In this document: positions 12,971 to 15,234 of the stretch, one piece after another
Layout: each line of letters starts with the position of its first letter
Numbering within the stretch: the first letter of the stretch is position 1
Origin: Escherichia coli
GTDB lineage: Bacteria; Pseudomonadota; Gammaproteobacteria; Enterobacterales; Enterobacteriaceae
Assembly: GCF_024223415.1 (NCBI RefSeq)
Contig: NZ_CP100500.1
Direction: 5' to 3' (one strand)
Length of the DNA stretch: 64,000 bases
The notes under the pieces: generated by a model
The model's input: only the letters and a program-made list of their open reading frames with translations
Told to the model about the DNA's origin: nothing
Database searches by the model: none
Made by a program: the position numbers and the translations under genes

Positions 12971-13225
12971 TTAAAGCTGACCGACAGACTTTCTTAACCT
13001 GGTAATATCTCTCTTAGGTGACTCTCCAAACATCCGCAAATATTCCCGGCTGAAATGGGATAAGCTTTCGTAACCGACAGCATAGGCTGCTGTGGTGACA
13101 TCGTAATGTTCATTCAGCATCGTTCGCCTGACTTCATTGAGACGTAGCCATTTCTGATACCGGAGTGGACTCATTCCCGCAAGCTGCCTGAAGTGTTGAT
13201 GGAAAGAGGGCGTGCTCATTTGCAC
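12971..13225 (-). pseudogene. yneL: AraC-family regulator remnant (C-terminal HTH only)
   Basis: 84-aa ORF is only an AraC-type HTH domain; less than 300 bp of non-coding DNA separates it from the hipA stop, so the N-terminal domain is missing. Confidence 0.6.
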
Positions 13226-13510
13226 GCGGTTTACCAGCTTGAGTCTTCAACGCTGGGAAGATGCGGCAAACGGCAAATCTGCATACCAGCCAGCCTATAT
13301 CCGGCATGCACAGGCCAATTATGAAAGAGGAGAGGCTTAAGTTCTGGAACCCTGAACGAATAACGACTACCGGAAAATCACTTCGTATCACTCAGATGCG
13401 ATTTAACATAATATACATTATGCGCACCAATATAAACCAAGGGAGAATCTAGTCGTTGGCGGTCATGATTGTCCTGCTCATTAACAACGACCAAACCCCA
13501 TATCTTACTC

Positions 13511-14833
13511 TTACTTAATACCGTATTCTCGGCTTAACCGACCGTGCAACCTCAACACATTGGTTTCAACTGCCGTCACCACGTTCTCTGGAAAATCTGT
13601 TGGTAATGAAGTCTTCACGTTATCCAGTACTGCCGGAATCATTCTGGCAAAGTCACTCAGGATTTCATGCATCTGCACTTCCGGGAATCTCAGCACCTTT
13701 GCTGTCGCCAAAAAATGTCGCGGATAAATTTTATCGATTGCCGTTTTTTTGCCTTTGGATGCGTTAAGCCCCATTGCCAGTTTGAGATCGCTGATGTGTA
13801 TTCCCGCGCCACCCAATACCGGAAATGCTGAAATGATGTCGTAAAATGGCGTGAGTCGATAACTGCCGCCAGCCTGAATAAATACGGAGAAGTTTTTTGC
13901 ATGGCCATCCGTTGCGCCAATCAACCACTGAAAGACCTGGAATTTCATAAAATCATACCGATCTTTCAGCGCCTCGCTGGACCCCATCAAAAAAGCCATG
14001 ATTCGCGCGATGCCTGGGCCTCCATCTGATTCATATTTCACCGATGAAGGTAAACCGAATGTCTGACACATATCCTCCTGTGGCAAGCGAAGTAAAACCG
14101 TTCGCTCAGTATTCCAACGCCTGTCAAAACGTTCGACCGCTAACGCGCGCACATTTCCCGCTTTAATGATTTCTGCGTCCGGAACATTCAACCCAAGTTC
14201 TTTCGCCAGCAGCAGACAGTAATACTCATTATCAACGCTTTGGCTGAGATCGAGCGTCGCATTGGGCTGCCTGATTTCCCCAATCGGTAATTTAATGATG
14301 TGCGTCGTCGGCGTTATTCCTTTCGGAATGCACCAGTCATTGCCTATTCTGAGCAGAGCTGTCTTCTCCTGTGCGCCAGCAACCGAGATGCGAAAGTCAT
14401 TTTCTTCTCTAATCATGCCTAGCGGGATATCTGCTTTATAAGCCGTTAATACTTCTTCAAGTCTGGCTTCAGTAAGCTTTTCCCATGCCATTATCGGACG
14501 CGTTACGGTTTCGTCTTCGGGTATTAACGTCACGGCACCAACGCTGTCTCGCCCTATTTCTGACAATAAATCAAACGGTTGTCTGGATTTGGCATGATAA
14601 CGTTTAACGATCCGGTCACGTACAATCGGGCTATCGGGTAACAAGTTATCGAAGAAGTTAAATACGGCATCAGAGGTGATATTCCCCCTCTGCAATGGCA
14701 GCGAAAGTGACAACGGTCTGGCATAACGGCTGGCTAACCACTCCGGTGCATACTTAAAGGTGTGCGCGCCGTTGGCTAACTTCGTTAACTCGCCTACCCG
14801 CTGGTTGTTCATCCAAGTGACTAGTTTGGGCAT
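13511..14833 (-). CDS. hipA: HipA serine/threonine kinase toxin (440 aa)
   Basis: Translation MPKLVTWMNNQRVGELTKLANGAHTFKYAPEW… matches recalled HipA; start overlaps hipB stop. Confidence 0.95.
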   Translation of the reverse strand: MPKLVTWMNNQRVGELTKLANGAHTFKYAPEWLASRYARPLSLSLPLQRGNITSDAVFNFFDNLLPDSPIVRDRIVKRYHAKSRQPFDLLSEIGRDSVGAVTLIPEDETVTRPIMAWEKLTEARLEEVLTAYKADIPLGMIREENDFRISVAGAQEKTALLRIGNDWCIPKGITPTTHIIKLPIGEIRQPNATLDLSQSVDNEYYCLLLAKELGLNVPDAEIIKAGNVRALAVERFDRRWNTERTVLLRLPQEDMCQTFGLPSSVKYESDGGPGIARIMAFLMGSSEALKDRYDFMKFQVFQWLIGATDGHAKNFSVFIQAGGSYRLTPFYDIISAFPVLGGAGIHISDLKLAMGLNASKGKKTAIDKIYPRHFLATAKVLRFPEVQMHEILSDFARMIPAVLDNVKTSLPTDFPENVVTAVETNVLRLHGRLSREYGIK

Positions 14834-15099
14834 TACCACTCCAGATCTTGCTTTTCTGTTGATTCTGGCGAGGCATTTTTCGTGTCGCATAGCGTCATTG
14901 AGAGTTCAAGCGACTGTAAAATCTTAAAAAATGTCGTGAGCGAGGTATTGTCAGGGTTGTTTTCGAAATTGGAAATCGTCGCCTGCTTAATGCCGATTTT
15001 TTTCGCCAGCTCGCTCTGCGTCCAGCCATTTTGCTGGCGAACCAGTTTCATTGCATTCGCTAATTGCGTTGGGCTATAGATCTTCTGAAAGCTCATCAT
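14833..15099 (-). CDS. hipB: HipB antitoxin, Xre-type HTH repressor (88 aa)
   Basis: MMSFQKIYSPTQLANAMKLVRQQNGWTQSELAKKIG…; Cro/C1-type HTH; 1-nt overlap with hipA. Confidence 0.95.
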   Translation of the reverse strand: MMSFQKIYSPTQLANAMKLVRQQNGWTQSELAKKIGIKQATISNFENNPDNTSLTTFFKILQSLELSMTLCDTKNASPESTEKQDLEW

Positions 15100-15120
15100 G
15101 TCATACGTCCACAGCAAATT

Positions 15121-15234
15121 TATCCGCTTAAGAGGATATTATCAGTTTTATCCTTTAGTGAGGATAAAGTCAATCTGGAAACACATCTTATCCGCTGTAC
15201 GGGATAAACGCTGCGATATCCGCGATCGCGGATA
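15121..15234. promoter_or_regulatory. hipBA promoter with four HipB operator palindromes
   Basis: Four TATCC-N8-GGATA palindromes at 15121..15138, 15149..15166, 15189..15206 and 15217..15234. Confidence 0.85.

What the first reader, a model, noticed from the sequence alone, without database searches (positions are those of the whole stretch)
12971..15234. hipBA module sits against a decapitated AraC-family regulator
The only AraC-like sequence upstream of the fimbrial operon is an 84-codon C-terminal HTH fragment (12971..13225). Fewer than 300 bp of non-coding DNA separate it from the hipA stop, so the N-terminal domain is gone. That is consistent with hipBA having arrived, or a deletion having occurred, at this junction, removing the fimbrial operon's probable local regulator. 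hipBA itself looks canonical: four TATCC-N8-GGATA operators, a 1-nt hipB/hipA overlap, and Gly22 unchanged (not the hipA7 G22S).
Basis: partly seen in the sequence, partly recalled or inferred. Interest (0 to 1): 0.3.

Follow-up and report, generated by a model that had tools for sequence, protein, structure and literature searches.

The report
Gene wreckage beside hipBA and dif
The truncated AraC-type gene next to the E. coli hipBA persistence module is the known pseudogene yneL. It is the last scrap of a small regulator–hydrolase gene cluster that eroded beside the chromosome's dimer-resolution site dif, and it is not a fimbrial regulator beheaded by the arrival of hipBA.

Summary
The sequence facts hold. 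There is an 84-codon AraC-family HTH fragment at 12971-13225, and homology to full-length genes runs to 13239. hipBA is canonical: four operators, a 1-nt overlap, and wild-type HipA G22 and D291.

- An exact 28-bp dif site (13401-13428).
- A 58-bp piece of an alpha/beta-hydrolase gene (13240-13297).
- The ribosome-binding site and first codons of a DUF2255 gene (13321-13390).

These pieces are collinear with an intact module, AraC_N regulator divergent from hydrolase–DUF2255. In Klebsiella-type assemblies that module also sits on the XerD-arm side of dif, in the same orientation. An internal deletion fused regulator codon 216 to hydrolase codon 220.

K-12-type and B2-type E. coli keep different scraps of the same module, so erosion was independent in each lineage.

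The hipB–hipA–dif block is conserved in a more distant enterobacterium, and homology stops exactly at the outer edge of dif. hipBA arrival is therefore not supported.

The regulator's likely target was the hydrolase operon, not F9 fimbriae.

All components are already known (yneL, dif, hipBA). The side observation is new to me: integrase-bearing, GInt-like islands insert exactly at the XerD edge of dif.

The parts
12971..13239 (-). Remnant of an AraC_N-type AraC/XylS regulator (= yneL pseudogene). It holds codons 216-304 plus the stop of a 304-codon gene. The first HTH is truncated and the AraC_N domain is absent.
   Evidence: Pfam HTH_18 4e-21. tblastn gives 87% identity to residues 216-304 only. 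blastn matches nt 647-916 of the 915-nt genes at 87-89%. PGAP calls it a pseudogene. Full-length relatives have AraC_N + HTH_18.
13240..13297 (+). Fragment of an alpha/beta-hydrolase gene (codons 220-239 of 359). It is fused head-to-head to the AraC breakpoint.
   Evidence: blastn 86% to L008 and 93-95% to Klebsiella-type L004-L007. tblastn 85% over 20 aa, E 1e-8. The hydrolase is Pfam Peptidase_S15/DLH/Abhydrolase_1.
13321..13390 (+). Vestige of the hydrolase-DUF2255 intergenic RBS and the first ~30 codons of DUF2255, with the start codon mutated. This sequence runs up to dif.
   Evidence: blastn matches window 13321-13356 to L008 6086-6051 (86%) and 13365-13390 to L008 6026-6001 (85%), collinear and on the same strand. 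Sequences were read side by side. DUF2255 Pfam 3e-40.
13401..13428 (-). dif, the XerC/XerD chromosome dimer resolution site. The XerC arm faces hipA and the XerD arm faces yneL.
   Evidence: Exact 28/28 match to GGTGCGCATAATGTATATTATGTTAAAT, with 0 expected. The literature places dif in the yneL-hipA intergenic region of K-12. It is present at the same place in all E. coli loci examined.
13400..13410 (.). Unoccupied attachment point for GInt-like islands (core GTTAAATC, at the outer edge of the XerD arm).
   Evidence: A 33.5-kb island in TKEC21-59 and a 12.7-kb island in CUVET21-1780 are inserted exactly here. Each is flanked by dif and an imperfect repeat ...ATAAGTTAAAT. All variant breakpoints fall at 13400|13401.
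13429..13510 (-). hipA 3' flank, part of the conserved hipB-hipA-dif block.
   Evidence: Outgroup locus L077 aligns with window 15237-13401 at 82% and stops at dif.
13511..14833 (-). hipA, serine/threonine kinase toxin, 440 aa, wild type at known high-persistence positions.
   Evidence: Pfam Couple_hipA + HipA_C. Residue check against K-12.
14833..15099 (-). hipB, Cro/C1-type HTH antitoxin, 88 aa. Its stop overlaps the hipA start by 1 nt.
   Evidence: Pfam HTH_3 3e-15. TAATG junction.
15121..15234 (.). Four HipB operators, TATCC-N8-GGATA.
   Evidence: Four matches in 114 bp against 0.03 expected in the whole window.

Best explanation
This is the E. coli terminus junction. From right to left it reads: hipB-hipA, dif, then about 430 bp of wreckage of a three-gene module, then the F9 (yde) fimbrial operon.

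The module was an AraC_N-type regulator transcribed divergently from an alpha/beta-hydrolase-DUF2255 operon. The regulator most likely controlled that neighbouring operon; this step is inferred.

An internal deletion joined regulator codon 216 to hydrolase codon 220. It removed both 5' halves and the shared promoter region. Further deletions removed most of the hydrolase gene and all of DUF2255 beyond about codon 30, bringing the remains flush against the XerD arm of dif. These steps are shown by collinear homology.

Different E. coli lineages carry different deletion derivatives of a fuller ancestor.

hipBA is a normal, intact type II toxin-antitoxin module. Its linkage to dif predates E. coli, and it played no part in the truncation.

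The XerD side of dif is also the insertion point of integrase-bearing, GInt-like islands. That makes this flank unusually unstable.
For: Shown by tool results:
- (1) dif is exact at 13401-13428 and is reported between yneL and hipA.
- (2) There is collinear, same-strand homology of window 12970-13239, 13240-13297, 13321-13356 and 13365-13390 to AraC, hydrolase and DUF2255. This holds for L008 and for Klebsiella-type assemblies L004-L007.
- (3) In L004-L007 the module lies 3-6 kb from a dif site, on the XerD side, in the same orientation relative to dif as in E. coli.
- (4) K-12 type keeps the hydrolase stop and intergenic hairpin but a shorter AraC piece. B2 type keeps hydrolase codons 240-272 and no AraC. 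No form can therefore derive from another.
- (5) No N-terminal AraC sequence lies at this locus in any of 5,426 genomes. It exists in 94 genomes, in the two settings I examined: an argW/intS island and the cargo of a dif-inserted island.
- (6) The AraC-hydrolase pairing recurs in L008, L004-L007 and the EC9 argW island.
- (7) The hipB-hipA-dif block is conserved in outgroup L077/L078, with homology ending at 13401.
- (8) At least 80% of the hipBA-plus-flank query is present in 4,568 genomes and some part in 5,408 of 5,426. The remnant segment is in 4,324.
- (9) Wurpel 2014 reports a variable f9 5' region, no evidence that its regulators control f9, and repression by H-NS.
Against: - The short DUF2255-derived matches are individually weak (26-45 bp, 84-86%). 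They rest on collinearity.
- The species of L008 and L077 is unknown. L004-L007 are called Klebsiella pneumoniae only through a source name on protein P0006, and those assemblies carry many frameshifts.
- No Escherichia outgroup (E. albertii, E. fergusonii, cryptic clades) could be retrieved. Whether the module was ancestral at dif or arrived on an island is therefore unresolved.
- No extant E. coli genome keeps a fuller version at dif.
- Regulation of the hydrolase operon by the AraC protein is guilt by association only.
Confidence: 0.8

Rival explanations
1. One reading: hipBA inserted (or a deletion occurred) at the hipA junction and beheaded the resident local regulator of the F9 fimbrial operon.
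For: The fragment lies between the F9 major-subunit gene and hipA. AraC-family regulators do control some fimbrial operons (general knowledge).
Against: - dif and gene scraps lie between the fragment and hipA.
- The breakpoint partner is a hydrolase gene.
- The hipBA-dif linkage is conserved in a more distant lineage.
- hipBA-deleted strains keep the same fragment.
- B2 strains lack the fragment but keep F9 and hipBA.
- There is no evidence of f9 control by these regulators.
Confidence: 0.03
2. The module (and so yneL) was never ancestral chromosome. It is decayed cargo of a mobile island that once integrated at dif (GInt-like, or an element exploiting Xer) and was then eroded in place.
For: - The XerD edge of dif is a live integration site. 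Hotspot #20 (hipA-ydeT) was occupied in 62 of 783 genomes.
- One GInt-like island at dif carries a full-length homologue as its last cargo gene, in the same orientation, 480 bp from yneL.
- Other full-length copies sit in an argW/intS island and next to cus genes, so the module is mobile.
- The B2 replacement segment retains 85 bp of a GInt 5' end next to dif.
- Both variant types end at the same left boundary, about 12950.
Against: - No GInt end sequences or pseudo-dif flank the remnant.
- yneL is about 11% diverged from both mobile E. coli copies.
- The same module lies on the same side of dif, in the same orientation, in Klebsiella-type genomes without a GInt core.
- No empty-site genome was found.
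Confidence: 0.3
3. The 84-codon ORF is a functional small HTH protein rather than a dead fragment.
For: The ORF is open in the long form, which is carried by about 1,190 genomes. Some sources name 82-85-aa versions 'AraC family transcriptional regulator'.
Against: - It starts inside the first HTH (residue 216, whereas the DNA-binding domain spans 204-291).
- It uses a GTG start, and no promoter-like site lies just upstream other than a chance match inside dif.
- It is frameshifted and shorter in K-12-type genomes and absent from B2.
- PGAP marks it a pseudogene.
- A K-12 deletion removing yneL had no phenotype in the one assay reported.
Confidence: 0.05

Closest known systems
yneL pseudogene of E. 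coli K-12 (putative AraC-type HTH fragment between ydeT and hipA)
   Same: Same locus, same gene remnant, same position relative to dif and hipA.
   Different: The window carries the longer allele (nt 647-916, plus a hydrolase scrap). K-12 has nt ~706-916, frameshifted, plus the hydrolase stop and intergenic hairpin instead.
E. coli K-12 hipBA type II toxin-antitoxin module
   Same: Gene order, 1-nt overlap, four operators, domain architecture, and all known catalytic and high-persistence positions are wild type.
   Different: Six HipA and four HipB substitutions of unknown effect.
dif / XerCD-FtsK chromosome dimer resolution site
   Same: Identical 28-bp sequence. The two KOPS-like GGGNAGGG motifs in the window both point towards it, but n = 2, so this is weak.
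   Different: Nothing differs.
AraC_N (PF06719)-type AraC regulators such as YqhC, which control an adjacent, divergently transcribed oxidoreductase gene (own knowledge)
   Same: Full-length relatives have AraC_N + HTH_18 and sit divergently from an enzyme gene.
   Different: The partner here is an alpha/beta-hydrolase-DUF2255 pair. The ligand and target are unknown, and the window copy is a dead fragment.
GInt (genomic islands with three integrases, Tn6571 family; Bardaji 2017, PMC5385486)
   Same: The islands found at this dif site in other strains share several GInt traits. They have a 5' four-gene block: two Phage_integrase proteins, a ~788-aa protein with no Pfam hit, and a ~142-aa protein. 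They also have variable cargo, an AT-rich 3' end, and imperfect flanking direct repeats.
   Different: Homology to reference GinABCD was not tested. Use of the dif XerD-arm edge as attachment site is not mentioned in the GInt, SE or defence-island papers read. The window itself holds only the empty site.
IMEX (integrative mobile elements exploiting Xer, e.g. CTXphi)
   Same: Integration at dif, leaving an intact dif on one side and a degenerate dif-like repeat on the other.
   Different: The E. coli islands encode their own tyrosine recombinases. The repeat covers only the XerD-arm end.

Membership tests
HipBA type II toxin-antitoxin (E. coli type) | HipA with N-terminal Couple_hipA and C-terminal HipA_C kinase domains | tested here: met
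   Pfam 2.5e-27 and 1.4e-51.
HipBA type II toxin-antitoxin (E. coli type) | Catalytic and autophosphorylation residues S150, K181, D309, D332 present | tested here: met
   All identical to K-12. The list of residues is from my own knowledge.
HipBA type II toxin-antitoxin (E. coli type) | Upstream Cro/C1-type HTH antitoxin HipB, translationally coupled | tested here: met
   HTH_3 3e-15 and TAATG overlap.
HipBA type II toxin-antitoxin (E. coli type) | Four TATCC-N8-GGATA operators in the promoter | tested here: met
   Four sites at 15121-15234, with 0.03 expected in the whole window.
HipBA type II toxin-antitoxin (E. coli type) | Growth arrest by HipA and neutralisation by HipB | not testable with these tools
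   Needs expression experiments.
AraC/XylS regulator with AraC_N domain | Complete C-terminal DNA-binding domain with two HTH motifs (~100 aa) | tested here: not met
   Only residues 216-304 are present. In full-length relatives the domain spans 204-291.
AraC/XylS regulator with AraC_N domain | N-terminal AraC_N (PF06719) domain | tested here: not met
   No trace in any frame of 13241-13510 or elsewhere in the window. It is present in relatives.
dif (XerCD site) | 28-bp site with XerC arm, 6-bp centre and XerD arm | tested here: met
   28/28 identity.
dif (XerCD site) | Location at the replication terminus, with KOPS and skew convergence | tested here: inconclusive
   GC skew over 64 kb is uninformative. 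Only two GGGNAGGG motifs exist; both point to dif.
GInt-type island (refers to related loci; the window has only the empty site) | 5' ginABCD-like block, cargo, AT-rich 3' end, imperfect direct repeats | tested here: met
GInt-type island (refers to related loci; the window has only the empty site) | Sequence homology to reference GinA-D proteins | not tested
IMEX | No own recombinase; integration by host XerCD | tested here: not met
   The islands encode two Phage_integrase proteins.

The most novel reading that the evidence does not exclude
Integrase-bearing, GInt-like islands use the outer edge of the XerD arm of dif as their attachment site in E. coli. They regenerate an intact dif and leave an XerD-arm-like repeat at their far end. 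Repeated integration, decay and adjacent deletion at this one point would then explain two things: the erosion of the neighbouring regulator-hydrolase-DUF2255 module, and the 'variable 5' region' of the F9 operon. The shared breakpoint of two lineages at hydrolase codon 239/240 would be the scar of a lost insertion.
Probability: 0.45. Interest if true: 0.5.

Novelty: already known. Interest (0 to 1): 0.22.

Why it matters
For the finding as posed, it matters little. yneL, dif and hipBA are all catalogued, and the strain's HipA is wild type at persistence positions.

What is useful is the correction. The DNA next to hipA is the chromosome's dimer-resolution site. Any hipBA or yneL deletion, or any comparison at this junction, must therefore take dif into account.

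The apparent orphan regulator should not be invoked for F9 fimbrial control.

The side observation may interest mobile-element and defence-island researchers. Multi-integrase islands, in at least one case with cargo that looks like defence genes from its annotation, dock exactly at the XerD edge of dif in about 100 of 5,426 complete genomes. Other lineages carry remnants. This gives a mechanistic handle on published hotspot #20 (hipA-ydeT).

Tried and rejected
- **N-terminal domain in other frames.** tblastn of a 304-aa full-length relative against the whole window found only residues 216-304.
- **yneL as relic of GInt cargo.** I first thought this because CUVET21-1780 carries a full-length homologue as the last gene of a dif-inserted island. 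I demoted it to a rival once the flanking 160 bp proved to be hydrolase and DUF2255 scraps collinear with the Klebsiella-type dif region.
- **Ancestral empty site.** A synthetic junction (dif directly joined to the flank left of 12950) found no such genome among 5,426.
- **Pseudo-dif at the left boundary.** A search for an XerD-arm-like half site found nothing within 3 mismatches.
- **Outgroup search.** The one genome-contig scan, using the F9 major subunit, returned no Escherichia outgroup. The only locus with dif was an E. coli-like (K-12-type) contig filed under a Nanosynbacter MAG title.
- **Fuller module at dif in E. coli.** A search with the hydrolase-DUF2255 DNA found none. It was partly confounded by a ~70% paralogous hydrolase elsewhere.
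- **GC skew** over the window is uninformative. KOPS count is too small to weigh.
- **Promoter/terminator scan** of 12600-13600 gave nothing useful for yneL.
- **Plasmid hits** to the island's 5' end are 128-bp remnants only.
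Full report
**What the window is.** The 4.3 kb around the finding is 100% identical to E. coli strain SCU-316. The window as a whole is not that strain, because it lacks 3.3 kb inside the neighbouring autotransporter gene. All genes below are on the minus strand. In order they are:
- the F9/yde fimbrial operon (usher 8210-10861, chaperone, major subunit 11974-12537);
- an AraC-like fragment;
- hipA (13511-14833) and hipB (14833-15099);
- the hipBA promoter;
- an autotransporter pseudogene, then lsrK.

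**Checking the observation.** Every stated sequence fact holds.
- The 84-codon ORF at 12971-13225 matches Pfam HTH_18 (4e-21) and HTH_AraC.
- hipA and hipB have the expected domains.
- The hipB stop and hipA start overlap by one base in TAATG.
- Four TATCC-N8-GGATA sites lie at 15121-15234, against 0.03 expected in the whole window.
- HipA is wild type at G22, P86, D88, S150, K181, D291, D309 and D332. Six substitutions elsewhere separate it from K-12. That these positions are the relevant ones is my own knowledge of the hipA7 and clinical-variant literature.
- PGAP already flags the AraC fragment as a pseudogene 'missing N-terminus'. It is the gene called yneL in K-12.

**What the fragment once was.** The closest longer relatives are about 304-aa proteins with an AraC_N domain (PF06719) followed by HTH_18. 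tblastn of such a protein against the window finds only residues 216-304 (87% identity, 12974-13240). Nothing of residues 1-215 appears in any frame. At DNA level, homology covers window 12970-13239, which is nt 647-916 of the 915-nt gene. It is 89% identical to two full-length E. coli copies and 87% to locus L008, with a sharp 5' edge. The fragment starts 12 residues inside the first HTH, so it cannot be a complete DNA-binding domain.

The 285-bp 'non-coding' gap contains an exact copy of the 28-bp E. coli dif site at 13401-13428. The XerC arm faces hipA and the XerD arm faces yneL. A 2025 preprint states that dif lies in the yneL-hipA intergenic region of K-12. The same preprint shows that a K-12 deletion including yneL but sparing dif had no phenotype in its assay.

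The rest of the gap is not random DNA either.
- 13240-13297 (plus strand) encodes residues 220-239 of a 359-aa alpha/beta-hydrolase. tblastn gives 85% identity; blastn gives 86-95%.
- 13321-13356 and 13365-13390 match the ribosome-binding region and the first ~30 codons of a DUF2255 gene.

These pieces are collinear and in the right orientation relative to an intact module in L008. In that module, DUF2255 is at 5694-6068 and the hydrolase at 6183-7262 on one strand, with the AraC gene at 7473-8387 on the other.

The decapitation therefore fused regulator codon 216 to hydrolase codon 220. It deleted both 5' halves and the divergent promoter region between them.

**Synteny with dif in another genus.** In four assemblies carrying protein P0006, which a source names Klebsiella pneumoniae, the same module lies 3-6 kb from a dif site that has one or two mismatches. 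It is on the XerD side, and the AraC gene is transcribed away from dif, exactly as in E. coli. This supports the view that the E. coli wreckage descends from a module resident next to dif.

**Independent erosion in E. coli lineages.**
- Of 5,426 complete genomes, 4,324 carry the remnant segment. About 1,190 have the long form seen here, and roughly 3,100 have a K-12 form.
- The K-12 form has a shorter, frameshifted AraC piece. It lacks the hydrolase 220-239 scrap. Instead it keeps the hydrolase stop codon and the intergenic hairpin, which the window lacks.
- B2-type strains have no AraC trace, but they keep hydrolase codons 240-272 (90% nucleotide identity), which PGAP annotates as a partial hypothetical. 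They also carry an unrelated SDR gene and 85 bp resembling the 5' end of a GInt-like island next to dif.
- No form can be derived from another, so all descend from a fuller ancestor.
- No complete genome retains more of the module at dif.
- Oddly, the window's hydrolase scrap ends within 2-3 nt of where the B2 scrap begins. I cannot explain this. A lost insertion at that point is one possibility.

**Was hipBA involved?** No evidence says so.
- All structural breakpoints among E. coli genomes fall at 13400|13401, the outer edge of the XerD arm. None falls at hipA.
- An unidentified enterobacterial lineage with 87% HipA identity has the hipB-hipA-dif block at 82% nucleotide identity. Homology to the window ends exactly at dif.
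- At least 80% of a hipBA-plus-flank query is present in 4,568 of 5,426 genomes, and some part in 5,408.
- Strains SX48, CUVET21-1780 and B1 lack hipBA yet keep the same yneL fragment. In CUVET21-1780 the loss is an internal deletion running from the operators to the last ~60 nt of hipA.

**Was it the fimbrial regulator?** Probably not.
- In three independent contexts the full-length gene is paired with the alpha/beta-hydrolase: L008, the Klebsiella-type dif region, and an argW/intS island. The N-terminal half of the gene occurs in 94 genomes, 87 of them at ≥99% identity to the argW-island copy.
- B2 strains lack the fragment yet keep F9.
- Wurpel et al. 2014 noted that the f9 5' region is variable and holds three different hypothetical regulators. 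They found no evidence that any of them controls f9, and showed direct H-NS repression.
- By analogy with AraC_N regulators such as YqhC (own knowledge), I infer that the protein sensed a small molecule and controlled the divergent hydrolase-DUF2255 operon. This step is inference only.

**The unstable flank.**
- In TKEC21-59, a 33.5-kb island is inserted exactly at 13400-13410. Its annotated cargo (a UvrD-type helicase, an ATP-dependent nuclease, several AAA ATPases) looks defence-like; I did not run a defence-system search on it.
- In CUVET21-1780 and strain B1, a 12.7-kb island sits at the same point.
- Each begins with two Phage_integrase genes, a ~788-aa gene and a ~142-aa gene. Each is flanked by an intact dif and an imperfect repeat ...ATAAGTTAAAT.
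- This architecture matches published GInts. I did not test homology to reference GinA-D.
- About 100 genomes have this island's 5' end directly against dif.
- Hochhauser et al. list hipA-ydeT as defence-island hotspot #20, occupied in 62 of 783 genomes.
- The main texts of the GInt, SE and defence-island papers do not mention dif. A further full-text search surfaced nothing on GInt-type islands at dif.
- The CUVET island carries a full-length AraC_N regulator as its last cargo gene, 480 bp from the resident yneL. This is why an island origin of the module remains a live rival (confidence about 0.3).

**Verdict.** A deletion did remove the N-terminal domain, but it happened inside a regulator-hydrolase module on the far side of dif. 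It did not happen at a hipBA insertion junction, and the gene was most likely not a fimbrial regulator. The components are all known, so the finding itself is of low interest. The dif-edge docking of integrase-bearing islands is the one thread worth following.

Noticed in passing
window 13400-13410; L014:1683-1720 and 35215-35240; L016:504-540 and 13200-13216: Multi-integrase (GInt-like) islands insert exactly at the outer edge of the XerD arm of dif. They leave dif intact and an imperfect repeat (ATAAGTTAAAT) at their far end. The window holds the empty site. About 100 of 5,426 genomes have the island's 5' end against dif.
   Followed up: partly
window 13297/13298 versus L010:4063 (L008 coordinates 6547 and 6544): The hydrolase scrap kept by the window type ends within 2-3 nt of where the scrap kept by B2-type strains begins (codon 239/240). 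This suggests a shared, now-lost insertion or a deletion hotspot. It is unexplained.
   Followed up: partly
L015:6471-9915 (strain EC9): An intact 304-aa copy of the regulator sits in a degenerate island at tRNA-Arg (argW)/intS, together with an intact alpha/beta-hydrolase and a fragment of an iron-containing alcohol dehydrogenase. In 87 genomes the N-terminal half matches this copy at ≥99% identity (EC9 was the one inspected).
   Followed up: partly
window 15310-17453: The ECSE_1600-family autotransporter next to hipB is broken into two overlapping ORFs. The window lacks about 3.3 kb (L001 10402-13677) that is present in the otherwise identical strain SCU-316.
   Followed up: partly
L016:200-531; L002: One lineage (SX48, CUVET21-1780, B1) has lost hipBA. 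In CUVET21-1780 the sequence shows a clean internal deletion from between the operators to the last ~60 nt of hipA, leaving two operators and dif intact.
   Followed up: partly
L013:6001-7279 and L075:16226-17489: In strain a7, hipBA and the autotransporter are replaced by a TolA-C-terminal-domain gene next to dif. A TolA-like gene also sits beside dif in an unidentified lineage whose HipA is 89% identical to this one. The XerC side of dif therefore varies too.
   Followed up: no
L080:7001-7128 (plasmid pT16R-1) and about 40 other plasmid places: 128-bp remnants of the island's 5' end, preceded by an XerD-arm-like TTATGTTAAAT, occur on large E. coli plasmids next to an ISNCY transposase.
   Followed up: partly
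window 9411-9428: A fifth perfect TATCC-N8-GGATA match lies inside the fimbrial usher gene. It is probably chance.
   Followed up: no
window 2357-2635 (-) and 39443-39730 (+): Two other AraC-family DNA-binding domains are in the window. From their sequences they look like YdeO and MarA (own recognition; YdeO is also consistent with RefSeq annotation of related strains).
   Followed up: no
L017 (JARKOR010000214.1): A contig filed as a 'Candidatus Nanosynbacter' MAG carries a 100%-identical F9 major subunit, an exact dif and a K-12-type yneL. It looks like E. coli contamination of that bin.
   Followed up: no
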